Assembly (NCBI GenBank): GCA_019359235.1
Contig: JAHHHT010000036.1
Location: 1-24,244 of the forward strand
DNA length: 24,244 nucleotides
Origin: Oscillatoria princeps RMCB-10
Lineage (GTDB): Bacteria; Cyanobacteriota; Cyanobacteriia; Cyanobacteriales; Oscillatoriaceae
Direction: 5' to 3'
The position numbers and the translations under genes are program-made. The notes under the pieces were generated by a model that saw only the letters and a program-made list of their open reading frames with translations, ran no database searches and had not been told where the DNA came from. This document shows positions 3,164-13,277 of the stretch, piece after piece. The number at the start of each line of letters is the position of its first letter. The stretch's first letter is position 1.

Positions 3164-4582
3164 ATGCCGCAAACCGCGCAAGAAGTCTTGCAGCTAATCC
3201 AAGAGCAAGATATAAAAATCGTAGACCTGAAATTTATCGACACGCCAGGGATCTGGCAGCACTGCTCGTTCTACCGCGACCTGATTGACGAGAGTGCCTT
3301 CGACGAGGGCGTGCCTTTCGACGGTTCCAGCATTCGGGGCTGGAAAGCCATCAACGAATCAGACATGTCAATGGTGCCCGATCCGACCACAGCTTGGATC
3401 GACCCGTTCATGAAAGAGAAGACCTTGAGCATGATCTGCAGCATCAAGGAACCGCGCACCAACGAGTGGTACAGCCGCGATCCGCGCACGATTGCTCAGA
3501 AGTCGATCGACTACCTGATTTCCACCGGCATTGGCGACACGGCTTTCATTGGCCCAGAAGCGGAGTTCTTCATCTTTGATGATGTCCGGTTTGACCAAAC
3601 CCAGAACACGGGCTATTACTATGTAGACTCAGTGGAAGGTCGCTGGAACTCCGGTAAAGAGGAAAAGCCAAACCTGGGTTACAAACCCCGCTACAAGGAA
3701 GGTTACTTCCCGGTTGCGCCAACGGACACGCAGCAGGACATCCGCACGGAGATGCTGCTGACGATGGCGGAATGCGGCGTCCCCATTGAAAAGCACCACC
3801 ACGAAGTGGCCACGGGCGGGCAGAACGAGCTGGGCTTCCGGTTTGACACTCTGGTGAAGGCCGCTGACTACCTGATGACTTATAAGTATGTCATCAAGAA
3901 CGTTGCCAAGAAGTACGGCAAAACCGTCACCTTCATGCCGAAACCGCTGTTTAACGACAACGGTTCTGGGATGCACACCCACCAGTCGATCTGGAAGGAT
4001 GGCCAACCCCTGTTCTGGGGCGATGGCTACGCCAACCTGAGCAAGACGGCGCTGCATTATATCGGCGGCTTGCTCAAGCACGCACCGGCGCTGCTGGCGC
4101 TCACCAACCCCACCACCAATTCCTACAAGCGGCTGGTTCCCGGGTTTGAAGCGCCGGTGAACTTGGCCTACTCCCAAGGCAACCGCTCAGCTTCGATTCG
4201 CATCCCGCTGTCGGGTACAAATCCCAAGGCCAAGCGGCTAGAGTTCCGCTGTCCCGACGCTACTTGCAACCCATACTTGGCGTTTGCGGCGATGCTGTGT
4301 GCCGGTTTGGATGGCATCAAGAACGAGATCGATCCGGGCGAGTCTCTGGATGTGGACATCTACGACCTGACCCCAGAAGAACTGGCCAAGGTGCCGTCCA
4401 CTCCCGGCTCTCTGCTAGACGCTCTCAAGGCGCTGGAAGCGGATCACGAGTTCCTGCTTGCCGGTGGGGTGTTCACGGAAGACTTCCTGACAACCTGGAT
4501 TGAGTACAAGATTGACAACGAAGTCAACCCGATGCGGCTGCGCCCGCACCCCTACGAGTTTGCGCTCTATTATGATTGCTAA
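3164..4582 (+). CDS. glnA: Glutamine synthetase type I (GlnA).
   Basis: 472-aa ORF with hallmark GSI regions throughout ([75 protein letters not shown]). AAGGAG ribosome-binding site. Confidence 0.97.
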
Positions 4583-4609
4583 TCTAGGCAATTCGTGAAC
4601 TTCTTAAGG

Positions 4610-4636
4610 ACGCCACCCTGCGGGGTGGCGTTTTTT
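4610..4636 (+). terminator. Rho-independent terminator of glnA: ACGCCACCC-TGCG-GGGTGGCGT followed by TTTTTT.
   Basis: A 9-bp GC-rich stem plus a T6 run, 28 nt after the glnA stop. Confidence 0.8.
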
Positions 4637-4643
4637 GTGATAA

Positions 4644-4712
4644 TGGGGCATGGGGCATGGGGTATGGGGCATGGGGGATTGGGCATTGGGCATTGGGCAT
4701 TGGGCATTGGTT
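4644..4712. repeat. Heptamer tandem repeats GGGGCAT / GGGGTAT / GGGCATT (about 9 units).
   Basis: Directly visible. Same family as the 2775..2935 array. Confidence 0.8.
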
Positions 4713-4725
4713 ACACCTAAGTATT

Positions 4726-5092
4726 AGTAGGGTGCGTGACGCCGCCGCACCGGCACTACTTGTGCGGAATTATCTCTTGGCGTCACGCACCCTACTGTAA
4801 AATAGTAGGCGTCACGCACCGCACGGCTGGACTTACTGGGGTGCGTGACGCCCCAACATAAGCGCACTATTTGTGCGGAATTATCTCTTGGCGGAAGGCA
4901 CCCTACTGTAAAATAGTGCGTGACGCCGCCGCACCGGCACTACTTGTGCGGAATTATCTCTTGGCATCACGCACCCTACTGTAAAATAGTAGGCGTCACG
5001 CACCGCACAGCTGGACTTACTGGGGTGCGTGACGCCGCCGCACAGGCGCACTACTTGTGCGGAATTATCTCTTGGCGTCACGCACCCTACTG
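4726..5092. repeat. Composite palindromic repeat array. Alternating modules A (AGTAGGGTGCGTGACGCC ... GGCGTCACGCACCCTACT around an inner CCGCAC..GTGCGG hairpin) and B (GGCGTCACGCACC ... GGTGCGTGACGCC), about 2.5 copies of a roughly 135-bp A+B unit.
   Basis: Nested inverted repeats and direct repetition were read from the sequence. The track ORF 4881..5081 (minus) lies wholly inside the array and is judged spurious. Confidence 0.85.
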
Positions 5093-5131
5093 CTGTTAAA
5101 ATTTGCTTCTCCCCCCAAAAGAGGAAAAATA

Positions 5132-5587
5132 ATGATGACCTCCGAAATTTTGAAAATCAATAGTCCTAAAGTAGTTCATGAAATCATTGACGGTGAAGTC
5201 GTAATTGTCCATCTGTTGAAAGGGCATTATTATAGCCTGGTCAAAACAGGGGCGGATATTTGGAGCGGAATTGAAAGAGGCATTTCTAGGGAGCGGATTC
5301 TGGAAGAGATGGTGAGCCGGTACGATGGCGATCCGGCAGATATTGAAAAGGCGGTAAACAATATGATAGAACAGTTGCAGGAGGAGGAACTGATCGCTGT
5401 CGCACAGACAGAGGAATCGGGAACTGCAGCCGCCGGCGCAATCGAAGCGAAGGCCAATCCAGAAAAGCTTAGCTTTGAGCCACCAAAGTTAGATAAGTAC
5501 ACGGATATGGAAGATTTGCTGCTGTTAGATCCCATCCATGAAGTTGATGAAACAGGCTGGCCCAATGTCAAGCCGGCGGGTGTGTGA
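5132..5587 (+). CDS. PqqD-family peptide chaperone / RiPP recognition element (RRE), with a roughly 60-aa acidic C-terminal extension.
   Basis: PKVVHEIIDGEVVIVHLLKGHYYSLVKTGADIWSGIERGISRERILEEMVSRYDGDPADIEKAVNNMIEQLQEEELI matches the PqqD / lasso B1 pattern (xxDGExVLLxxxxGxYYxLNxTGAxIWxLLxGxxxxxEIxxxLxxxYxxDxxxxxxDVxxFLxxLxxxGLI). The start was moved to the ATGATG at 5132, which has an AAGAGGA ribosome-binding site. The track start at 5057 lies inside the repeat array. Confidence 0.75.
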   Translation: MMTSEILKINSPKVVHEIIDGEVVIVHLLKGHYYSLVKTGADIWSGIERGISRERILEEMVSRYDGDPADIEKAVNNMIEQLQEEELIAVAQTEESGTAAAGAIEAKANPEKLSFEPPKLDKYTDMEDLLLLDPIHEVDETGWPNVKPAGV

Positions 5588-6678
5588 AAAGACTGATGAT
5601 AAACAAATTATTGCAGCCGGATATGGCAGCCAAGAATGCTATAATGGAGCCGCTGGAGTTTTTCGATGCGGTTTATCAAAAGTACGAAAAAGCTGAAGCT
5701 GCTGGCGGGGGGTGTGTTGAGCGTTATTATTGTATAGCCGGTTTTGCAGTTCGGTTGCGTTTTGCCGGAGGGGCGCTGCTACCATATATCACACCGGCTT
5801 TAGCGCACTTGGCGACAGAACCTGTTGGGGAGCCGGTGCTGACTGTGTGTTTGTGGGACAGTGACTCTACGAACACGGCAATGCCGCCGCCGCCTTGGCA
5901 AGCGGATGATTATCGAGATCGCGGGGAAATTCGAGGGTTCATCAACGAGCGAATTCAGACGATTTTCCAAGTAGGAGTGAATGCGCTGTCGCTTTTGGAC
6001 AGAGAGCGGAATTTGGGTATATACTGGGTTAAGACTGCCAAACAGATTCCCTACTATGAAAGTAGCGCTCCTCTGCGGGCAATTTTTCACTTGTGGATGA
6101 GTCAGCGGGGAATCCAACTGATTCATGCCGGTGCGGTGGGACTTCCCAGTGGGGGGGTGTTGCTGGTGGGAAAGGGGGGTTCGGGCAAATCGACCACAGC
6201 TCTAGCTTGTCTGAATTCCGAGCTTTTCTATGCTAGCGATGATTACTGTTTGCTGGCGCACCACCCCACCCCAACGGTTTTCAGTATTTACAGCACCGGC
6301 AAGAAAAATGCGGATGATGTGGGAAGATTGCCGTTTATGGTTTCACATATCAGCAATCCTGACCGGCTCGGTACAGAAAAAGCGGTTTATTTTTTGAGCG
6401 AGAGTTTTCCGGACAAACTTTTGCCAAGTTTTCCGCTCAGGGCAATTTTGATACCGCGCATTAGTGGGGGGAGAGAGACGGCATTGAAACCGGCATCGCC
6501 GGCTGCCGGTCTGGTGGCGCTGGCTCCGAGTACAATATTTCAATTGCCAGGTGCGGGGAAAGAGGCGTTTCAGACAATGGGACAACTTGTCAGGCAGGTT
6601 CCTTGCTATCAGCTGAACTTGGGCACTGACACCGGGCAAATTCCTGAGGTGATTTTAGAATTATTAGCGGATAATTAA
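5584..6678 (+). CDS. HPr kinase/phosphorylase-related kinase (HprK C-terminal-domain-like with a P-loop), of the kind seen as a RiPP or lasso-peptide tailoring kinase.
   Basis: GVLLVGKGGSGKSTTALACLNSELFYASDDYCLL parallels the HprK [30 protein letters not shown] core. The GTG start overlaps the upstream stop (GTGA), which suggests translational coupling with the RRE gene. Confidence 0.7.
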   Translation: MKRLMINKLLQPDMAAKNAIMEPLEFFDAVYQKYEKAEAAGGGCVERYYCIAGFAVRLRFAGGALLPYITPALAHLATEPVGEPVLTVCLWDSDSTNTAMPPPPWQADDYRDRGEIRGFINERIQTIFQVGVNALSLLDRERNLGIYWVKTAKQIPYYESSAPLRAIFHLWMSQRGIQLIHAGAVGLPSGGVLLVGKGGSGKSTTALACLNSELFYASDDYCLLAHHPTPTVFSIYSTGKKNADDVGRLPFMVSHISNPDRLGTEKAVYFLSESFPDKLLPSFPLRAILIPRISGGRETALKPASPAAGLVALAPSTIFQLPGAGKEAFQTMGQLVRQVPCYQLNLGTDTGQIPEVILELLADN

Positions 6679-6681
6679 GCC

Positions 6682-7458
6682 ATGCAATCTGACCAATTCT
6701 TTGTGAGCGTTATTATCCCCGTGTACAATGGAGAAGCTTTTTTGGCAGAAGCTGTTGAGAGTGTGCGGCAGCTTAATTACCATCCTCTAGAAATTCTCAT
6801 TGTAGACGATGGCTCGACAGATGGCACTGCCGTAATTGCCAAAAACTTCCAGGGGGATGTCCGCTATGTGTGGCAATCTAATAGTGGGCCATCTGCTGCC
6901 CGCAATACGGGACTGAAGATGGCAAGGGGGAACATTATCGCTTTTTTGGATGCGGACGATTTGTGGCCAAACAATAAATTAGAAATTCAGCTGGCGTGCT
7001 TGGCTGCAAATCCATCGGTCGAAATTGTCGGGGGGTACATACAGTATATGCGGCGCTCGGAGAGCGCTACAGACACACAATTATTGGTTGAATTTGCCGA
7101 ACCTATTGTTTCTTTTAACTTGGGGGGTGCGATTTTTAGGAGGCCGGTGTTTGACAGAATAGGCTTGTTTGACGAGAAGCTGCGTTACAGTGAGGATGTT
7201 GACTGGTTTATGCGAGCTTGGGAGAAGGGGGTTTCAATGCTTGTGTTGAAGCAGGTGACGCTGTTTTATCGAAGACACCTGGACAGCATGACTTATGGAA
7301 CCAATTTACACGATCTTAATTTCATTAAGATCCTCAAAAAATCTCTGGACCGGCGTCGGCAACAAAGCAATGGCTCAGCCGCGCCACTTCCTGGATTTTC
7401 CTATGTGGATGAACCTACAGGCAAGCCTACTGTAAACCACTTTGAAGAGGGATTATAA
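6682..7458 (+). CDS. Glycosyltransferase family 2 (short GT-A fold), paralog 1.
   Basis: VSVIIPVYNGEAFLAEAVESV..LEILIVDDGSTDGT...AARNTG...FLDADDLWPNNKL is the classic GT2 N-terminal domain with a DxD motif. Confidence 0.85.
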   Translation: MQSDQFFVSVIIPVYNGEAFLAEAVESVRQLNYHPLEILIVDDGSTDGTAVIAKNFQGDVRYVWQSNSGPSAARNTGLKMARGNIIAFLDADDLWPNNKLEIQLACLAANPSVEIVGGYIQYMRRSESATDTQLLVEFAEPIVSFNLGGAIFRRPVFDRIGLFDEKLRYSEDVDWFMRAWEKGVSMLVLKQVTLFYRRHLDSMTYGTNLHDLNFIKILKKSLDRRRQQSNGSAAPLPGFSYVDEPTGKPTVNHFEEGL

Positions 7459-7460
7459 CT

Positions 7461-8150
7461 GTGGAGAGACTGTTAGTGAGTGTTATTGTTCCTGTTTATA
7501 ATGGCGAGCGCTATTTATCGGCGGCGCTGGAAAGTATTTTCGCTCAGGACTATCATCCCTTCGAGGTGATTGTTGTGGATGATGGTTCGGTTGATAGCAC
7601 TGCGGCCATCGCCAAATCCTTCAAATCAGTTCAATATATCTACCAAACTAATCAGGGGATTGCTAATGCTATGAACAGGGGGATCGATGCTGCCGGTGGA
7701 GAATTGATTGCTTTTCTCGATCAAGATGACCTGTGGACACCCAACAAATTGAGGCTTCAGGTTGATTACTTGGTCAATCACCCAGAAATCCAATACGCGA
7801 TCTCCCTGGTGAAGTTTTTTCTGGAACCGGGGTGTTCTGTCCCGCCCGGCTTCAAAACAGAATTATTAGAGAAAGAACAGGTGGGTCGCATCCCCGGCGC
7901 TTTAATGGCCCGCAAATCTTTGTTGGCGCTAATCGGTCAATTTAATGCGGAGTTTACCATTGCATCCGATGCGGACTGGTTCGCCAGAGCTAAAGATAGT
8001 AACATACCTTGGGCTGTGATTCCTGAAGTTTTGCTTCACAAGCGCGTCCACAACACAAATGTTTCATCAAACGCACGATTGAACAACAAGGAGCTGTTGG
8101 CTTTACTGAGAAAATCAATTGCTCGCCAACAAAAATCCACTCAAGAATAG
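7461..8150 (+). CDS. Glycosyltransferase family 2, paralog 2.
   Basis: VSVIVPVYNGERYLSAALESI..FEVIVVDDGSVDSTA...FLDQDDLWTPNKL. Collinear with paralogs 1 and 3. It starts 2 nt after the previous stop. Confidence 0.85.
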   Translation: MERLLVSVIVPVYNGERYLSAALESIFAQDYHPFEVIVVDDGSVDSTAAIAKSFKSVQYIYQTNQGIANAMNRGIDAAGGELIAFLDQDDLWTPNKLRLQVDYLVNHPEIQYAISLVKFFLEPGCSVPPGFKTELLEKEQVGRIPGALMARKSLLALIGQFNAEFTIASDADWFARAKDSNIPWAVIPEVLLHKRVHNTNVSSNARLNNKELLALLRKSIARQQKSTQE

Positions 8151-8167
8151 CAAAAGGAATCCTCAAG

Positions 8168-8866
8168 ATGGGAAATCAGCCCCTAGTGAGCGCTATCGTA
8201 CCTGTGCGCAATTGCGAGCGCTATTTGGCAGAAGCGCTGGACAGTGCGCTGGCGCAGACTTACTTGCCGGTGGAGATATTTGTTGTGGATGACGGTTCAG
8301 CGGATGGGAGTGGGGAGATTGCCAAACGCTATGTGCCGGCTGTGCGGTATATCTTTCAAACCAGTGCCGGCGCTGCAGCAGCCAGAAACCGGGCAATTCC
8401 ACTAGCTAAGGGTGACTTTTTCGCTTTTCTGGATGCTGATGATGTCTGGCTTCCGGATAAACTTGCCCTGCAAATGGCAGCGTTTGATGCCGAACCAGAC
8501 CTTGACATTGTTACCGGCCATGTGCAACAATTTATCAGTCCAGAGTTAGACGCTGAAGGGATGAAAGGAGTTTATTGCCCACCTGAACCCATGCCAGGTT
8601 ATATCCCTACTGCTATACTCGTCAAGCGCGAAGCCTTTTTTCGGATTGGCTTGTTTGATGAAAATTATCCTGCCGAATATCAAATGGAATTTATCAACTG
8701 GTGTGCGCGTGCTGTGGAGCTTGGTTTGCATATAAAGGTGCTTCCCGAGTTAGTCGCGCGGCGGCGCTTGCACCAAACAAACCAGGAGCGCTCTCGCAAC
8801 TCGAGGCTGGAAATTGTGCGCATCCTGAAAGCTTCTCTCGACCGGCGGCGAGGTGAAAATGGGTAA
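8168..8866 (+). CDS. Glycosyltransferase family 2, paralog 3.
   Basis: VSAIVPVRNCERYLAEALDSA..VEIFVVDDGSADGS...AARNRAI..FLDADDVWLPDKL. Confidence 0.85.
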   Translation: MGNQPLVSAIVPVRNCERYLAEALDSALAQTYLPVEIFVVDDGSADGSGEIAKRYVPAVRYIFQTSAGAAAARNRAIPLAKGDFFAFLDADDVWLPDKLALQMAAFDAEPDLDIVTGHVQQFISPELDAEGMKGVYCPPEPMPGYIPTAILVKREAFFRIGLFDENYPAEYQMEFINWCARAVELGLHIKVLPELVARRRLHQTNQERSRNSRLEIVRILKASLDRRRGENG

Positions 8867-8898
8867 AAAATCGGGTTTCTTAAAGAAACCCGGTTTTT
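8865..8898 (+). terminator. Palindromic hairpin AAAAAATCGGGTTTCTT-A-AAGAAACCCGGTTTTT (10-bp stem flanked by an A-run and a T-run). It has a bidirectional terminator-like form and sits inside the operon between GT2 paralog 3 and the ABC gene.
   Basis: The perfect palindrome was read at 8872..8892. A T5 run lies downstream. It belongs to the dispersed GAAACCCGGTTTC family. Confidence 0.55.
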
Positions 8899-8929
8899 AG
8901 CCTCATGTGAAGGAAGTAAAGAACCGACA

Positions 8930-10588
8930 ATGAACTTACCAGCTTGGCGTTACTACAGTCAATTATACAAAGATTATTACCACTTGCTGTTCTGGAGCGT
9001 TGCAGCCTCCCTGGGGCAATCTGCGGTTTTCTTCCCCATTGCTTTGCTGGTACGCCATGTATTTGATGTCGCAATACCCACCGGCAACTTATCGCTTTTG
9101 GCGCTCACAGGAGTGGCGGTTCTTGTCCTGTACGCCGGCAACATGGCGCTGGCGCTCTGGACGAGATACATTATCCTTAAAATTACTAAAATTGCCATCC
9201 AGCGGCTGAGGGTTGAACTATTAAATAAGTTTTATGCTTTTTCGCGCTCCTACTACAGTCAAGCCGATACGAGCCAGTTGCACACGATTGCCGTTCAAGA
9301 TACCCTGCGCCTGGACATGATGAGCAATGCGCTAGTTGCCCAAGTCATCCCGGCACTGCTCATCTGTGCTGTTTTGAGCGCCGTGTTAATCGCAGTGAAT
9401 TGGTTTTTGTTTCTAGTGCTGGCGCTCGTCGCTCCTCTCATTTATCTGTTGAGCAAAAATCTGGGTAAAAAAGTAAAGCATTGGCTAAAAGCCTATCACC
9501 GCACATTTGAAAAATTCAGCAAAGGGATGCTATTTGTCCTGCAAAATATGGAACTCACCCAAATCCAATCGGCGGAGGAATTTGAAAGGGTGAGGCAAGG
9601 TAAATTGCTGAATGATGAGCGATTGACAAGCAGTGCGATGGCTTGGCTCTATACGGCTTACGGTCTGGCGCAAACCTTTACCGTCGCAGCAGCAAGTGTC
9701 CTGCTTTTAATGGCTGGCGGCTGGGCGATATCCGCCGGCTACATGACCTTAGGAGAGATGGTATCCTTTTATGTAGCGGCCAACTTGATGAGAACTTATG
9801 CCAACACAATTTCGCAAGCCATCCCCCAAATTATAGACGGAAATGAATCTCTGAGTGTTTTGTACGAGCTGTTACAGGTGAGCGACACAAGACCTTATGC
9901 CGGCACTGAAAAAATTGGCTTTCAGGGGAAAATCACTCTCAGGAACGTGAGTTTTTCTTACAGCGACAGGAGGATACTGTCAAATGTCACGCTGTCAGTC
10001 AATCCGGGAGAGACTGTAGCGATTGTCGGGCGCAACGGTGCCGGCAAAAGCACGATTCTTTATCTTATCTTAGGCTTTTACCGGCCACAAGAAGGAGAGC
10101 TGTGGGCAGATGACTGTCCCTTCAGCACACTGGACATTGCGCATCTGCGCCGGCAAATAGGAGTCGTCATGCAAAAGCCGGCAATCTTTGCGGGGACAAT
10201 TTGGGAAAATATCACCTATGGTGCGCCAGATGTGAGTTGCGAAAGGGTGATTGAATCTGCTAAAATAGCCACAGCCCATGAATTTATCCACCGGCTCCCA
10301 GAAGGCTACGAAACCTGTGTGGGAGAAGGGGGAATGCTGCTATCCGGTGGACAGCGCCAGCGGATAGCCATCGCCCGCGCTCTTGTGCGCCAACCCAAGC
10401 TCCTCATCCTCGATGAGCCAACCAATCATCTGGACGAAGCTGCTGTGAGCCAGCTGATAAAAAATCTCAAAGGCATGGCGGAAGCCCCCGCTATTCTTAT
10501 AATAAGTCATAATAGGGATATTGTGCGGGAAGCCAAACATGTGTATACTGTAAAAGATGGATGTCTGGTGGAAACCCTTTGGGGATGA
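8930..10588 (+). CDS. ABC transporter, fused permease/ATP-binding exporter. It resembles type I exporters of the kind that export lasso peptides and bacteriocins, and it has no peptidase domain.
   Basis: 552 aa. The N-terminal half is hydrophobic and reads as transmembrane. Walker [13 protein letters not shown] signature LSGGQRQR, Walker B LLILDEPT. Confidence 0.9.
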
Positions 10589-10615
10589 AAAGCAGAGAGG
10601 ATTTATCCCCCTTCC

Positions 10616-10697
10616 GTAGGACACGTCTCGTGTCCAAATCCAGGCGTAGGACAGGCGAGACGCCTGTCCAGACGCAGGACACGTCTCGTGTCCAAAT
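10616..10697. repeat. Three consecutive short hairpins: GGACACG-TCT-CGTGTCC, GGACAGGCG-AGA-CGCCTGTCC, GGACACG-TCT-CGTGTCC.
   Basis: Inverted repeats read at 10619..10635, 10649..10669 and 10677..10693, between the ABC gene and the nucleotidyltransferase gene. The middle hairpin recurs at 20413 and 22861. Confidence 0.7.
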
Positions 10698-10720
10698 TAG
10701 AACAAAAAAAAGGAGGTACA

Positions 10721-11941
10721 ATGCAAGAGTGGCAAATGAATACAAAGGAAAATATGGGCGGCTACAAGCCGACTCACCAGCAAGGATTGCTCTTACGAGC
10801 TGCGCTTTTGCAAGGTGAAAACGCCCTCGCAGCTTGGGAGGAATGGAGAGCGGCTGTTGATATTCAACGTCTCGATGCTGGTTCCTATCGGTTACTGCCT
10901 TTATTGTATCGCAATTTGTCGCTTCATGGGGTAAATGACCCCCTGATGGCAAAATTTAAGGGAGTCTACCGGAACACCTGGTGCAAAAACCAACTCTCAT
11001 TTAAGAAAGTCTCAGCTGTGATGCGGGCTTTTCACGAGGCGGGGATTCAAACCATGCTCCTGAAAGGGGCGGCTTTGTCCTTAAATTATTACCGAGATTA
11101 TGGCCTCCGTCCCATGAGTGATTTTGACCTTATCGTCCCTACTGCAGACGCTTTACCAGCAATGAAGTTGTTGAGGGAATTGGGGTGGGAAACTTCTGTA
11201 GAAAGACCGGAAAGATATATAGATTTAACGCACGCCGCCGGAGGATTTTCTGATGAATACGGAACAAAAATGGATCTCCACTGGCATGTATTACACCAGT
11301 GCCTTCAAGAGAATGCTGACGAGGATTTCTGGAAGGGCGCGATATCTGTTAAAATAGATGATTTGTCAACCCATGTCTTAAACCCGACCGATCAGTTATT
11401 TCACGTCTGCGTGCATGGATGGCATGGGGATGTATTTCCGACAATTCGCTGGGTGGCTGACGCGATGACGGTGATTAACTCATCTCCAGATGCAATTGAT
11501 TGGCACCGGCTAGTCGCACAGGCTGAAAAAAGACAATTGGTTTTGCGGTTAAAAGATACACTGCCGATATTGCGCGACCTTTTGGACGCCCCAGTACCCC
11601 TATCGATTATACAAGATATCGAAAAGCTACCCATTGCAGCAATTGAGCGGCTCGAATATAAGAGTTCACCAGGCAGACTGATACGAGGATTCGGGAGTTT
11701 GCCAATGATATATACTTCTTATGTGAGGCGGAGTATGAATGATGGCAGTTTCAACCTTTTAGGTTTGGCAAGGCATCTGCAATATTACTTGGGGTTGGAA
11801 CACTTATGGCAGCTTCCCTTGGATGTGATTAAGCGGGGTATAAGAAGGATTTGGATTGACCTCTTAGGAGGAAAGTCTGCGCCAATTCCAACAAAACGGG
11901 CATTTCGCCAGGAGCGCGAAGCCAGTAAAACTTCAGTTTAG
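10721..11941 (+). CDS. Nucleotidyltransferase-family protein (NTP_transf_5 / lasso-cluster-associated nucleotidyltransferase-like).
   Basis: MLLKGAALSLNYYRDYGLRPMSDFDLIVP...LGWE is the signature region as I remember it for that family. The start was moved to the ATG at 10721, which has an AAGGAGG ribosome-binding site. The track GTG start at 10688 lies inside a hairpin. Confidence 0.6.
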   Translation: MQEWQMNTKENMGGYKPTHQQGLLLRAALLQGENALAAWEEWRAAVDIQRLDAGSYRLLPLLYRNLSLHGVNDPLMAKFKGVYRNTWCKNQLSFKKVSAVMRAFHEAGIQTMLLKGAALSLNYYRDYGLRPMSDFDLIVPTADALPAMKLLRELGWETSVERPERYIDLTHAAGGFSDEYGTKMDLHWHVLHQCLQENADEDFWKGAISVKIDDLSTHVLNPTDQLFHVCVHGWHGDVFPTIRWVADAMTVINSSPDAIDWHRLVAQAEKRQLVLRLKDTLPILRDLLDAPVPLSIIQDIEKLPIAAIERLEYKSSPGRLIRGFGSLPMIYTSYVRRSMNDGSFNLLGLARHLQYYLGLEHLWQLPLDVIKRGIRRIWIDLLGGKSAPIPTKRAFRQEREASKTSV

Positions 11942-12006
11942 TTGCAGTGGCGCATTCGCCGCACAATCGCAATTATGGAGTTTCTCAGTTGGATGAAATA
12001 TGGCCC

Positions 12007-12040
12007 AAAAACCCGGTTTCTTTAAGAAACCGGGTTTCTC
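12007..12040. repeat. Palindromic hairpin AAACCCGGTTTCTT-TA-AAGAAACCGGGTTT of the GAAACCCGGTTTC family, 65 nt after the nucleotidyltransferase stop.
   Basis: Inverted repeat read directly. An A-run lies upstream, and there is only a weak U-tract downstream on the plus strand. Confidence 0.6.
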
Positions 12041-12218
12041 ACTACCTCACTAATATGAGGAATGCTATAGGGCATTTTAATGAATAAATCATAGTCAAAT
12101 TAAATGCCTAACAGCCGGCAGCTAGGGGGGAGCTGTCTGCCGGCTTGGCAAACGCTACCTTTATGTGTTACAATTATTTACAGTAGACGCCATTGCTTAC
12201 ACAGACCCAGCCATTCTT

Positions 12219-13277
12219 ATGTCTGACACCTTAACAAAACTGGCATACCAGACTTTTCAACAGGGCAAAAGTTACTTCGGTCTGGCTCACAAAGCCTTAA
12301 GTTCCAACTTGCGGAACTTATTGTATCCTGCTAGCACTCCTCAGACTAAACCTATCGGCTCGGCTCTGATAGAACTCCTTCAACAAAGGAGCGCTCAGCT
12401 CCTGGAAACAGACTGGCTGGATGCTGAGCGGGGCGTGTATCCCACCAGCTTGCTCTTTGACAATCCTTGGGAAGACTTCTTTCGCTACTATCCCGTGGTT
12501 TGCCTGGATCTGCCGCCAATCTGGGAGCGGATTCAGCAGAAGAAATCTCAGGAATTTTCGCCAGAGATTGAGACGGAAGGCTATCCCAACTACTATTTGC
12601 AAAACTTCCACCACCAGACAAACGGCTACTTGAGCGACATGTCAGCCAATCTCTATGACTTGCAGGTGGAGCTTCTTTTTGGTGGCACCGCCGATCCCAT
12701 GCGGCGGCGAATCCTGGCTCCTCTAAAGCAAGGGCTGAATGCTTTTAGCTCAACTCCTCCCCACCAAATCCGGGTTCTAGATATAGCTTGCGGAACCGGG
12801 CGCAGCCTGAAATTAATCCGAGCTGCTCTCCCTAAAGCATCCCTATTTGGCACTGACTTGTCACCGGCTTACTTGCGCAAGGCAAATCAGCTGCTGTCGC
12901 AAAATCCAGGGGAATTGCCGCAACTCCTGCAGGCTAATGCAGAGGAACTGCCCTATAAAGATAGCTACTTCCACGCAGTCACGAGCGTTTTTCTCTTCCA
13001 CGAACTTCCGCCGGCGGCGCGTCAGAAGGTGATCCAGCAGTGCTTCCGAGTCACTCAGCCAGGGGGAGTCTTTATTATCTGTGACGCTATTCAGGTGAGC
13101 GATTCTCCGGAATTCATGCCAATGATGGAAAACTTCCCAGATATGTTCCACGAACCCTACTACAAGCATTATATCACAGATGACCTGACAGAACGTTTAG
13201 AAAAAGCCGGCTTCACGAATATTTCTACTGAAGTCCACTTGTTTAGCAAGTATTGGGTCGCTCACAAGCCGGCCTAA
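12219..13277 (+). CDS. Class I SAM-dependent methyltransferase (Methyltransf_11/25-like).
   Basis: VLDIACGTGRSLKLI (SAM motif I), with an acidic motif II region and YKDSYFHAVTSVFLFHELP downstream. The start was taken at the ATG at 12219. The track lists an alternative GTG at 12165. Confidence 0.8.
   Translation: MSDTLTKLAYQTFQQGKSYFGLAHKALSSNLRNLLYPASTPQTKPIGSALIELLQQRSAQLLETDWLDAERGVYPTSLLFDNPWEDFFRYYPVVCLDLPPIWERIQQKKSQEFSPEIETEGYPNYYLQNFHHQTNGYLSDMSANLYDLQVELLFGGTADPMRRRILAPLKQGLNAFSSTPPHQIRVLDIACGTGRSLKLIRAALPKASLFGTDLSPAYLRKANQLLSQNPGELPQLLQANAEELPYKDSYFHAVTSVFLFHELPPAARQKVIQQCFRVTQPGGVFIICDAIQVSDSPEFMPMMENFPDMFHEPYYKHYITDDLTERLEKAGFTNISTEVHLFSKYWVAHKPA

What the first reader, a model, noticed from the sequence alone, without database searches (positions are those of the whole stretch)
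6682..8866. Three tandem short GT2 paralogs between the kinase and the exporter
Three consecutive proteins of about 230-260 aa share a collinear N-terminal GT-A domain (S/AVIIPVYNGE.YL..A..S...Q.Y...E...VDDGS.DGT, then FLDADDLW.PNKL), with gaps of 2 to 17 nt. A local triplication inside a peptide-modification-like operon suggests sequential addition of up to three sugars, or differing sugar specificity. Paralog 2 diverges most (DQDD; ANAMNRG in place of AARN).
Basis: seen in the sequence. Interest (0 to 1): 0.5.

Follow-up and report, generated by a model that had tools for sequence, protein, structure and literature searches.

The report
Three glycosyltransferases in a peptide-tailoring-like operon
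Three adjacent sugar-adding enzymes are real and are fixed parts of a widespread, uncharacterised seven-gene operon resembling the machinery that phosphorylates and glycosylates ribosomal peptides, but they are three ancient enzyme types, not a recent local triplication.

Summary
Three collinear, soluble GT2 (GT-A) genes lie at 6682-7458, 7461-8150 and 8168-8866, separated by 2 and 17 nt, between a P-loop kinase-like gene and an ABC exporter.

They belong to one operon: PqqD-type RRE, HprK/PEPCK-like kinase, GT-A, GT-B, GT-C, ABC exporter, NTP_transf_5.

The cassette recurs across Cyanobacteria, Chloroflexota, Acidobacteriota, Nitrospirota, Desulfobacterota and Ignavibacteriae. Its 194 GT2 domains fall into three old clades (A, B, C) in a conserved order. 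In one genome they are fused into a single 732-aa protein. Copy number runs from 1 to 4. C is present in 62 of 66 complete cassettes; A and B are optional.

Against the nearest genome, every gene is 88-95% identical except the middle GT (59%). That is a precise allele swap.

No precursor peptide, lasso cyclase or leader peptidase is present.

The most likely function is stepwise assembly of a short, strain-variable glycan on a phosphorylated acceptor. This is an uncharacterised relative of the pseudomycoidin and LPP tailoring modules. The acceptor is unknown.

The parts
5132..5587 (+). PqqD-family RRE protein (151 aa): N-terminal RRE, variable Ser/Thr/Ala/Glu-rich linker, conserved C-terminal tail FExPxLxKYTDMEDLLLLDPIHEVDExGWP
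   Evidence: Pfam PF05402, E = 7e-14. In the AF2 model the RRE has pLDDT about 90 and tail residues 111-125 about 88. The best PDB matches are lasso B1 RREs TbiB1 5v1v/5v1u. The tail is conserved in 76 of 80 loci. The stop codon overlaps the kinase start.
5584..6678 (+). P-loop kinase-like protein (HprK/PEPCK-like fold; database family PF27840 'ScmC'); an alternative ATG start lies at 5596
   Evidence: The motifs GKGGSGKST and DD are invariant. There are weak NCBIfam hits to HprK_rel_A, HprK_rel_B and hpr-ser. A profile of the family hits HPr kinase 1knx at E = 0.0012. The AF2 model has pLDDT 93 and its best Foldseek matches are ATP-dependent PEP carboxykinases.
6682..7458 (+). GT2 paralog 1 = cassette clade A (soluble GT-A; DDGS, DADD, ED motif present)
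   Evidence: PF00535, E = 4e-35. Clade assignment. 90% identical to the L006 ortholog. No TM segment.
7461..8150 (+). GT2 paralog 2 = cassette clade B; a divergent allele compared with the nearest relatives
   Evidence: PF00535, E = 9e-34. Clade B. Only 59% identical to the L006/L004/L005 orthologs while its neighbours are 88-97% identical.
7372..8185 (.). Recombined (swapped) segment: 3' end of GT2-1, all of GT2-2, and the spacer before GT2-3
   Evidence: DNA identity to Oscillatoria sp. PCC 10802 falls from 86-99% to 21-73% exactly here, then returns to 94-99%.
8168..8866 (+). GT2 paralog 3 = cassette clade C, the near-universal and usually last GT; it has Phe where clades A and B have the Asp of the E-D motif
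   Evidence: PF00535, E = 1.5e-33. Clade C is present in 62 of 66 untruncated cassettes. Alignment column 172 is F in 85% of C versus D in 96-98% of A and B. 95% identical to L006.
8868..8896 (.). 29-nt palindrome AAA(T/C)CGGGTTTCTTAAAGAAACCCGGTTT between GT2-3 and the exporter; a second copy lies at 12009-12037
   Evidence: 4 matches against 0 expected by chance. It also scores as a terminator-like hairpin on the minus strand.
8930..10588 (+). ABC exporter (TMD + NBD half-transporter, MsbA/TAP/HepA-like, no peptidase domain)
   Evidence: PF00664 and PF00005. All NCBIfam hits are below their cut-offs. A homologous exporter sits between GT-C and NTP_transf_5 in 13 of the 80 kinase-seeded loci, e.g. 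L054, L042, L068.
10721..11941 (+). NTP_transf_5 'uncharacterised nucleotidyltransferase' (406 aa from the ATG after an AGGAGG; the ORF opens at GTG 10688)
   Evidence: PF14907, E = 2e-41. The start region was read. The gene is conserved in the cassettes.

Best explanation
The three genes are the clade-A, clade-B and clade-C members of a cassette-specific subfamily of small soluble GT-A (GT2) glycosyltransferases. They are translated from a single seven-gene operon with four partners: a lasso-B1-type RRE protein, a P-loop HprK/PEPCK-like kinase, an MsbA-like ABC exporter and an NTP_transf_5 enzyme.

The proposed mechanism is inferred by analogy, not shown. The kinase phosphorylates a hydroxyl group on an acceptor that the RRE protein presents. 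That acceptor is most likely a peptide or protein Ser. The phosphate is then capped with a first sugar, with NTP_transf_5 and/or GT-C involved. The remaining GT2s each add one further sugar. The result would be a short oligosaccharide, three GT-dependent steps in this strain, and the product leaves through the ABC exporter.

GT-C is the core step. GT-A and GT-B are optional, duplicable extension modules. The middle module has been exchanged by recombination in this lineage, so the glycan probably differs between close relatives.

The acceptor is not encoded as a recognisable small gene in the window.
For: Operon:
- The reading frames overlap or are 2-17 nt apart from PqqD through GT2-3. All seven genes are on the + strand.

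The cassette is real and ancient:
- 168 species genomes encode the kinase.
- All 78 kinase-seeded loci that extend more than 400 bp past the kinase carry cassette GT2s; the other two are cut off there. 76 of 80 carry the PqqD gene, and most carry NTP_transf_5.
- Identical gene order (Kin-A-B-C-ABC-NTP5) occurs in an Ignavibacteriae genome, L054.

Three clades:
- 194 GT domains split into A (58), B (62) and C (74) by both NJ and UPGMA. Assignment was stable in 99.97% of cases across 100 bootstraps.
- Identity to the own clade has a median of 0.50-0.52, against 0.36 to the other clades.

Modularity in 66 complete cassettes:
- ABC 18, AC 15, BC 7, C 7, BBC 4, AABC 3, BBBC 3.
- Fused forms occur: A~B~C (732 aa) and A~A.

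Specificity:
- GT-seeded searches return the cassette.

Allele swap:
- Shown. The same junction is a site of gene gain in L004 and L005.

Enzyme features:
- DDGS and DxDD motifs are conserved. There are no TM segments.
- Clade C lacks the Asp of the E-D motif. This would fit an acceptor that needs no deprotonation, such as phosphate, but that is inference.

RRE and kinase folds:
-.

Precedent:
- PsmK phosphorylates a Ser, and PsmN, an uncharacterised NTP transferase, is required for hexose on that phosphate (PMC6993621).
[quoted passage not shown] LppN appears to need an unidentified partner (PMC13381572).
- GT2 enzymes are known to glycosylate RiPPs (PMC11912497).
Against: - No precursor gene was found. 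No small intergenic ORF is conserved across the loci. No lasso- or LPP-type leader motif occurs in any frame of the window. YxxPxL-bearing small ORFs are not enriched on the cassette strand (17 of 698 versus 15 of 692).
- No leader peptidase or cyclase is present.
- The kinase is only distantly HprK-like. Its best fold matches are PEP carboxykinases, so a small-molecule substrate is not excluded.
- In two genomes the cassette sits inside an LPS core / lipid A locus. Elsewhere it lies next to a Wzx-like flippase, GT4s and several sulfotransferases. This also fits an envelope-glycan role.
- The order of action, the donor sugars and the first glycosyl transfer are all unknown.
- That PsmN and LppN belong to PF14907 is inferred from their description, not verified (one search found nothing).
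Confidence: 0.5

Rival explanations
1. Envelope-glycan function. The cassette decorates or builds a cell-surface glycoconjugate (LPS core, sheath or exopolysaccharide) rather than a free peptide product. The GT2s act on a lipid- or polysaccharide-linked acceptor and the ABC protein acts as a flippase.
For: - The cassette is embedded between GT9 heptosyltransferases, Kdo-family kinases, LpxK, WaaA, an MsbA-like ABC protein and LpxB in a deltaproteobacterium and a Binatia genome.
- It lies next to a Polysacc_synt flippase in an acidobacterium.
- It co-occurs with GT4s, SDRs, epimerases and multiple sulfotransferases.
- LPP clusters also sit in capsule loci (PMC13381572).
- The allele swap of the middle GT resembles O-antigen or capsule GT replacement.
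Against: - A lasso-B1-type peptide-binding RRE is present in 76 of 80 cassettes.
- The window has no initiating phosphoglycosyltransferase, Wzx/Wzy or sugar-nucleotide genes, and its flanks are housekeeping genes.
- The GT2s have no membrane segment.
- Generic polysaccharide-type GT2s in the metagenome scan carry no cassette genes, and cassette-type GT2s almost always do.
Confidence: 0.2
2. Self-contained system. The RRE protein itself is the acceptor or carrier. Its C-terminal tail carries a leader-like FExPxL motif that binds its own RRE in cis. The adjacent Ser/Thr-rich linker or the conserved tail is what gets phosphorylated and glycosylated.
For: - No separate precursor gene was found.
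- F115, P118 and L120 are invariant or nearly invariant, with the same spacing as the [Y/W]xxPx[L/V/I/F/A] motif that lasso RREs bind (motif from PMC13381572).
- AF2 places tail residues 111-125 with pLDDT about 88 and beta strands, while the linker is disordered.
- The RRE is 32-35% identical to TbiB1, which was crystallised with such a leader.
Against: - No Ser or Thr is invariant in the tail. T124 is replaced by D, E, A or N in some phyla.
- The tail is far more conserved than a typical RiPP core, so it could be a docking motif for the kinase or the GTs.
- Contacts in the AF2 model could not be inspected.
- No protease is present that could release a product.
Confidence: 0.15
3. Parallel rather than sequential action. 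The three GTs are alternatives, each putting a different sugar on a different site or acceptor, or partly redundant, instead of building one chain.
For: - Cassettes work with any of C, AC, BC or ABC.
- The clades differ at catalytic-region positions.
- Clade B shows variation in its donor-binding motif: DDGS versus DG[QHN]S, and D or S in DxDD.
Against: - The conserved order A-B-C and the fusion into one polypeptide favour a coordinated assembly line.
- C is almost never missing, whereas A and B are duplicated, as expected for extension steps.
Confidence: 0.15
4. A recent local triplication, or a chance juxtaposition of ordinary cell-wall GT2 genes next to an unrelated kinase.
For: Public annotation is only 'glycosyltransferase family 2 / involved in cell wall biosynthesis'.
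Against: - The paralogs are 35-40% identical to each other but 50-60% identical to orthologs in other phyla.
- Three stable clades exist.
- The association with the cassette is tight in both directions.
Confidence: 0.01

Closest known systems
Linear polyphosphorylated peptide (LPP) clusters of Bacillota (Popov et al. 2026, PMC13381572)
   Same: [quoted passage not shown] Frequent association with glycan loci. The final glycosylated product is unknown.
   Different: - The window has no SpI-type leader peptidase and no LppA-type precursor or YxxPxVLxHQ motif.
- It has dedicated cassette-specific GT2 genes inside the operon, and an RRE with a conserved C-terminal tail.
- The kinase belongs to a different subfamily (PF27840-like, PEPCK-like two-domain fold).
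- It occurs in Cyanobacteria and other didermic phyla.
Paeninodin / pseudomycoidin lasso-peptide tailoring module (PadeK/PsmK kinase + PsmN; PMC6993621)
   Same: A kinase plus NTP transferase that yields Ser-phosphate carrying one or two hexoses. ABC exporter. B1-type RRE.
   Different: The window has no cyclase, B2 protease or precursor. In pseudomycoidin no recognisable GT is in the cluster, whereas here one to four GT2s are core members.
GT2 enzymes that glycosylate RiPP-derived molecules (MftF of mycofactocin, SunS-type glycocin GTs, IgtG)
   Same: GT-A / GT2 fold with a DxD motif, acting in an RRE-containing pathway. MftF is the top NCBIfam hit of paralog 1 (93.8 bits).
   Different: All scores are far below the family cut-offs (MftF cut-off 280; SunS 19 bits). 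There is no radical SAM partner. Here the enzymes are short single-domain proteins, whereas IgtG is a membrane protein with a deacetylase domain.
SynChlorMet cassette (ScmC with a PqqD homolog and two radical SAM/SPASM proteins; named from my own knowledge of TIGRFAMs)
   Same: The kinase-like protein is tagged PF27840 'ScmC' in the database and is paired with a PqqD-family protein. From my own recollection, no precursor has been identified there either.
   Different: The window has no radical SAM/SPASM genes. Several PF27840 hits are only 'faint'. GT2s and NTP_transf_5 take their place.
O-antigen / capsule / EPS glycosyltransferase gene clusters
   Same: Tandem soluble GT2s, one sugar per enzyme, GT allele replacement between close strains, and sometimes the same chromosomal neighbourhood.
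   Different: The window has no initiating transferase, polymerase, flippase or sugar-nucleotide genes. The GT clades are tied to an RRE/kinase/NTP_transf_5 set and not to polysaccharide machinery.

Membership tests
Glycosyltransferase family 2 (GT-A fold, Pfam PF00535) | Match to PF00535 above the gathering score | tested here: met
   121.5, 117.2 and 116.6 bits against a cut-off of 23.3.
Glycosyltransferase family 2 (GT-A fold, Pfam PF00535) | Nucleotide-sugar binding DDGS-type motif and a DxD metal-binding motif | tested here: met
   VDDGS and DADD/DQDD are present in all three. D41, D46, D91 and D92 are 95-100% conserved in every clade.
Glycosyltransferase family 2 (GT-A fold, Pfam PF00535) | Acidic catalytic base in the E-D region | tested here: inconclusive
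   Clades A and B keep Asp (96-98%). Clade C, including paralog 3, has Phe (85%) there but keeps the preceding Glu. Activity was not tested.
LPP (linear polyphosphorylated peptide) biosynthetic cluster | Discrete RRE, HprK-like kinase, uncharacterised NTP transferase and MsbA-like exporter | tested here: met
   PF05402, PF14907 and ABC_membrane + ABC_tran. The kinase-like P-loop protein has weak HprK hits and a PEPCK/HprK-superfamily fold. That LppN is PF14907 is inferred from its description.
LPP (linear polyphosphorylated peptide) biosynthetic cluster | Archaeal-type signal peptidase I (LppS) as leader peptidase | tested here: not met
   No peptidase domain is found in any operon gene or flank except an unrelated M50 protease 3 kb away on the other strand. 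None appears among the recurrent accessory families.
LPP (linear polyphosphorylated peptide) biosynthetic cluster | Precursor with an N-terminal YxxPxVLxHQxIxFETxxS motif | tested here: not met
   A regex search over all six frames of the window found none. No small ORF is conserved across the loci.
Lasso peptide cluster (paeninodin type) | Asn-synthetase-like lasso cyclase, transglutaminase-like B2 protease, and a precursor with YxxPxL...T | tested here: not met
   None is present in the 24 kb window.
Mycofactocin glycosyltransferase MftF | Score above the TIGR03965 cut-off and the presence of MftA-E | tested here: not met
   Best score is 93.8 bits against a cut-off of 280. No radical SAM or Mft genes are present.
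SynChlorMet cassette | ScmC-family protein with a PqqD homolog and two radical SAM/SPASM proteins | tested here: not met
   ScmC-like (PF27840, database annotation) and PqqD are present. No radical SAM gene is in the window.
Polysaccharide / O-antigen assembly locus | Initiating phosphoglycosyltransferase, Wzx/Wzy or Wzm/Wzt, and sugar-nucleotide synthesis genes beside the GTs | tested here: not met
   All are absent from the window. Some occur near the cassette in other genomes.

The most novel reading that the evidence does not exclude
The cassette is a precursor-less, RiPP-like pathway in which the RRE protein is its own substrate or carrier. A leader-like FExPxL motif in its conserved C-terminal tail docks in cis onto the RRE. 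The kinase, NTP_transf_5 and the A/B/C glycosyltransferases then build a phosphate-linked, strain-variable oligosaccharide on that protein or on a peptide released from it. This would be a conserved phosphoglycosylated molecule made in many bacterial phyla, and a new class of RRE-dependent product.
Probability: 0.15. Interest if true: 0.85.

Novelty: new variant of a known kind. Interest (0 to 1): 0.6.

Why it matters
The RRE + HprK-like kinase + NTP-transferase module is known from pseudomycoidin-type lasso peptides and from the recently described LPPs. In both cases the glycosylation chemistry and the final products remain unresolved.

This operon is a compact version that spans many phyla. 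In it the glycosyltransferases are fixed, cassette-specific members: one core clade plus two optional, duplicable and swappable clades. It therefore offers a defined minimal gene set for working out how phosphate-linked glycans are built on peptide-like acceptors.

It also shows that such pathways are not restricted to Bacillota. Allele replacement of a single GT between near-identical cassettes suggests that the glycan is under diversifying selection, as surface antigens are.

Tractable carriers exist. One example is Trichormus variabilis (locus L084).

Tried and rejected
- Conserved small ORFs (18-110 aa) were sought in and around 80 cassettes. Only shadow ORFs inside genes and lineage-restricted ORFs appeared.
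- Lasso and LPP leader motifs were searched in all six frames of the window. Only the RRE protein's own tail was found.
- YxxPxL-bearing intergenic ORFs are not enriched on the cassette strand.
- A 69-aa ORF with YQFPNL occurs upstream of the cassette in L012, L014 and L018, but nowhere else and not in the window. It was rejected as a general precursor.
- The repeat-encoded 'GHGAWGMGHG...' ORF at 4595-4720 was rejected as a translation of a simple tandem repeat that overlaps the glnA terminator.
- Literature searches for PF14907, SynChlorMet, and combinations of HPr kinase / PqqD / nucleotidyltransferase / glycosyltransferase found no description of this cassette.
- The supplements of PMC13381572 contain no Pfam accessions that would tie LppN to PF14907.
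- A three-cluster UPGMA bootstrap reproduced the exact partition in only 88 of 200 replicates. Centroid and nearest-neighbour assignment were used instead and were stable.
- PDB sequence searches for NTP_transf_5 gave nothing usable.
- One exception to the GT-cassette link was found. In L100 a clade-A-like domain is fused to DUF1919 in a glycan-type locus with no kinase.
Full report
OBSERVATION

The three ORFs exist exactly as described: 6682-7458 (258 aa), 7461-8150 (229 aa) and 8168-8866 (232 aa), all on the + strand. The gaps between them are 2 and 17 nt, and 3 nt separate the first from the upstream gene. Each is a confident GT2 domain, with PF00535 E-values of 4e-35, 9e-34 and 1.5e-33. 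They align collinearly from end to end, with 35% and 40% identity to paralog 1 and 55 invariant columns. None has a hydrophobic stretch compatible with a membrane helix; the highest 19-residue Kyte-Doolittle mean is 1.43 or less. PDB sequence matches are ordinary inverting GT-A enzymes: chondroitin polymerase, GalT1, SpsA, PglI and 6p61.

THE OPERON

The three genes lie in a seven-gene, same-strand unit:
- a PqqD-family protein at 5132-5587, whose stop overlaps the next start;
- a 364-aa P-loop protein at 5584-6678;
- the three GT2s;
- an ABC half-transporter at 8930-10588;
- an NTP_transf_5 protein (PF14907) at 10721-11941.

The flanks are housekeeping genes: glnA and a phycobiliprotein upstream; a methyltransferase, YbjN and a lipoate ligase downstream. 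G+C across the cassette is 0.46-0.51, against 0.52-0.59 outside it. The exact protein sequences occur in Oscillatoria princeps RMCB-10 and in an 8.6-Mb genome, where they are annotated only as family 2 glycosyltransferases.

The 'kinase' gets no hit in the local Pfam copy. Evidence for its identity is as follows:
- It carries an invariant GKGGSGKST P-loop and a DD pair.
- It has weak NCBIfam matches to HprK-related kinases A and B and to HPr kinase.
- A profile of the family hits HPr kinase 1knx at E = 0.0012.
- Its AlphaFold model has pLDDT 93, and its best matches are ATP-dependent PEP carboxykinases with TM about 0.55. From established structural knowledge, that is the superfamily to which HPr kinase belongs.
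- The protein database tags the family PF27840 'ScmC'.

The PqqD protein models as a canonical RRE. Its closest solved relatives are the lasso B1 proteins TbiB1 (32-35% identity, TM 0.9 on the target) and 6jx3.

CONSERVATION ELSEWHERE

The kinase has 45-68% identical homologs in many phyla. A scan of one genome per species found 168 genomes with it, and 80 loci were fetched. The taxa include Cyanobacteria, Chloroflexota, Acidobacteriota, Nitrospirota, Desulfobacterota, Myxococcota, Ignavibacteriae, Verrucomicrobiota, Omnitrophota and Abditibacteriota.

All 78 loci that extend more than 400 bp past the kinase carry short GT2s of this type; the other two are cut off there. 76 of 80 have the PqqD gene immediately upstream, and most have NTP_transf_5. 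Thirteen of the 80 have a homologous exporter between the last GT and NTP_transf_5, and two more have one after the last GT. An Ignavibacteriae genome (L054) has exactly the window's order, with overlapping stops and starts. Recurrent accessory genes are:
- a TPR-containing protein of about 460 aa after the kinase;
- an SDR;
- an SGL-type lactonase;
- an epimerase;
- sulfotransferases;
- GT4s;
- a second divergent NTP_transf_5.

THREE OLD CLADES, NOT A LOCAL TRIPLICATION

The 194 GT2 domains taken from these cassettes split into three groups. Each contains one window paralog: A (58 domains), B (62) and C (74). Neighbour-joining and average-linkage clustering agree. Centroid assignment agrees with this partition in 99.97% of cases over 100 bootstraps. 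Each window paralog is 50-52% (median) identical to members of its own clade in other phyla, but only about 36% (at most 42%) to the other clades.

Among 66 loci that are not cut short, the architectures are ABC 18, AC 15, BC 7, C alone 7, BBC 4, AABC 3, BBBC 3 and AAC 2, plus a few others. Clade C is present in 62 of 66 and is almost always last. A and B are optional and can be duplicated. Composition differs even within genera: Planktothrix has ABC and AC, Coleofasciculus and its relatives have ABC, AC and BC. In a deltaproteobacterium the three are fused in the order A~B~C into one 732-aa protein, and an A~A fusion also exists.

So the window shows the commonest form of an ancient modular set. 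The idea of up to three glycosylation steps fits the modularity.

IS THE LINK SPECIFIC?

- Three clade-C homologs from unrelated organisms were looked up: Trichormus variabilis, Merismopedia glauca and an acidobacterium. Each sits with PqqD and NTP_transf_5. One of the three has no kinase gene called.
- A metagenome scan was seeded with clade B and returned 80 loci. Fifteen score at least 140 bits to any window paralog, and 13 of these have some room on the contig (the other two are 1.1 and 1.9 kb). Twelve of the 13 carry at least one cassette partner: kinase, PqqD or NTP_transf_5 in eleven, and an exporter homolog in L093. The one exception (L100) is a clade-A-like domain fused to DUF1919 in a glycan-type locus.
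- Of the 65 loci scoring 130 bits or less, which are generic GT2s, one has a weak kinase-like match. The rest have no kinase, PqqD or NTP_transf_5 match; three have weak ABC matches.

These GT2 clades are therefore essentially cassette-specific.

STRAIN-LEVEL VARIATION

Against the closest genome (Oscillatoria sp. PCC 10802, L006), identities are PqqD 89%, kinase 90%, GT-A 90%, GT-C 95%, ABC 94% and NTP_transf_5 88%. GT-B is only 59%. DNA identity is 86-99% on both sides and falls to 21-73% between about 7372 and 8185. That span covers the 3' end of GT2-1, all of GT2-2 and the spacer.

In two other relatives the same junction holds a duplicated 5' fragment of the B gene and an inserted 243-aa ORF. 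In L005 the fragment is joined to a remnant of a kinase 3' end. The middle position is thus a recombination hot spot. This resembles glycosyltransferase replacement in surface-glycan loci, and I infer that the product's glycan differs between close strains.

CATALYTIC FEATURES

All clades keep the DDGS-type and DxDD motifs. Some clade-B members vary in these motifs. Clades A and B keep the Asp of an E-D motif (96-98%). Clade C has Phe there (85%; the window reads EEFINW) but retains the preceding Glu. A core transferase without the usual base would suit a pre-ionised nucleophile such as a phosphate. This is an inference only.

WHAT IS THE ACCEPTOR?

None was found.
- There is no lasso cyclase, B2 protease or signal-peptidase-type leader peptidase.
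- No lasso or LPP leader motif occurs in any frame of the window.
- No small intergenic ORF is conserved across cassettes.
- YxxPxL-bearing ORFs are not enriched on the cassette strand.

The one unusual element is the RRE protein itself. After the RRE and a variable, Ser/Thr/Ala/Glu-rich linker comes a tail, FExPxLxKYTDM[EQ][ED]LLLLDPIHEVDExGWP, which is conserved across phyla. Its F-x-x-P-x-L has the same spacing as the [Y/W]xxPx[L/V/I/F/A] motif bound by lasso RREs (PMC13381572). AlphaFold places residues 111-125 with high confidence and beta structure, while the linker is disordered. This suggests binding in cis. However, contacts could not be inspected and no Ser or Thr in the tail is invariant.

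COMPARISON WITH KNOWN SYSTEMS

In pseudomycoidin, the HprK-like PsmK phosphorylates the C-terminal Ser. PsmN, an uncharacterised NTP transferase, is required for one or two hexoses on that phosphate. The authors left open whether PsmN is itself the transferase (PMC6993621).

[quoted passage not shown] They lie in capsule loci. LppN was inactive in the heterologous host and is thought to need a partner, and the final product is unknown (PMC13381572).

The window shares four of those components. It lacks the peptidase and the precursor, and it adds dedicated GT2s. It therefore works like these modules but fails the membership test for both LPP and lasso clusters. GT2 enzymes acting on RiPPs have precedent. 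The MftF and SunS models score far below their cut-offs here. No paper describing this cassette was found.

MECHANISM AND RIVALS

The reading I consider most likely (confidence about 0.5) runs as follows. The RRE protein presents an acceptor. The kinase phosphorylates it. NTP_transf_5 and/or GT-C add the first sugar to the phosphate. GT-B and GT-A extend the chain by one sugar each. The ABC protein exports the product.

What is shown: the gene set, its conservation, the three clades, their modularity and the allele swap. What is inferred: every biochemical step and the nature of the acceptor.

The main rival is an envelope-glycan role. It is supported by cassettes embedded in LPS core / lipid A loci and by neighbouring flippase, GT4 and sulfotransferase genes. 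It is weakened by the near-universal peptide-binding RRE and by the absence of polysaccharide machinery in the window. The two readings are not fully exclusive, because the product could be a surface-exposed glycopeptide.

VERDICT

The 'triplication' interpretation is wrong. It is an uncharacterised variant, spanning many phyla, of the kinase / NTP-transferase peptide-tailoring module, with its own family of glycosyltransferases.

Noticed in passing
window 5132-5587 (tail = residues 111-144, nt about 5462-5563): The PqqD/RRE protein has a C-terminal tail, FExPxLxKYTDMEDLLLLDPIHEVDExGWP, conserved across phyla. It contains a lasso-leader-like FxxPxL motif. AF2 models residues 111-125 confidently next to the RRE. 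It may be a cis-bound pseudo-leader, a docking motif, or the substrate itself.
   Followed up: partly
window 4643-4705 and 4732-5092: Directly after the glnA terminator there are about nine tandem ATGGGGC/ATTGGGC heptamers. They are followed by two tandem copies of a 177-nt unit (94% identical, 184-nt spacing) with internal inverted repeats, ending 40 nt before the operon's first start codon. The function is unknown; it could be a promoter or regulatory region, or a MITE-like insertion.
   Followed up: partly
window 8868-8896 and 12009-12037: Two copies of a 29-nt palindrome (AAACCCGGTTTCTTTAAGAAACCGGGTTT), with none expected by chance, bracket the ABC and NTP_transf_5 genes.
   Followed up: partly
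window about 10619-10696: The 132-nt spacer between the ABC stop and the NTP_transf_5 start holds two copies of the palindrome GGACACGTCTCGTGTCC and a third palindrome (GGACAGGCGAGACGCCTGTCC). This could be RNA structure or a regulatory element inside the operon.
   Followed up: no
window 5001-13000: G+C of the cassette region is 0.46-0.51, against 0.52-0.59 in the flanks. This is consistent with horizontal acquisition.
   Followed up: no
L004 5782-6935; L005 6377-7577: In close relatives the GT-A/GT-B junction carries a duplicated 5' fragment of the B gene and an inserted 243-aa ORF. In L005 the fragment is joined to a remnant of a kinase 3' end. These are scars of rearrangement at the same spot where the window's B allele was swapped.
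   Followed up: partly
L085 (Merismopedia glauca) 7814-12918: This cassette has PqqD, two GT2s, an SDR, an SGL lactonase and NTP_transf_5, but no kinase gene was called. The kinase may therefore be dispensable, or it may be encoded elsewhere.
   Followed up: no
L012 4572-4781, L014 6782-6991, L018 6085-6294: A conserved 69-aa ORF with an N-terminal YQFPNL (YxxPxL) motif lies about 3-4 kb upstream of the kinase in three related cyanobacterial loci. It is absent from the window and from all other loci.
   Followed up: yes
L084 (Trichormus variabilis) 3715-12725 and many cyanobacterial loci: Many cyanobacterial cassettes carry extra genes: a second, very divergent NTP_transf_5 upstream of PqqD, a TPR-containing protein of about 460 aa directly after the kinase, and an SDR plus an SGL-type lactonase after GT-C. 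The window has an ABC exporter at the position after GT-C instead.
   Followed up: partly
L001-L003, L043, L089: In a deltaproteobacterium and a Binatia genome the cassette sits inside an LPS core / lipid A locus. The neighbours are GT9 heptosyltransferases, Kdo-family kinases, PMT_2, LpxK, WaaA, an MsbA-like ABC protein and LpxB.
   Followed up: partly
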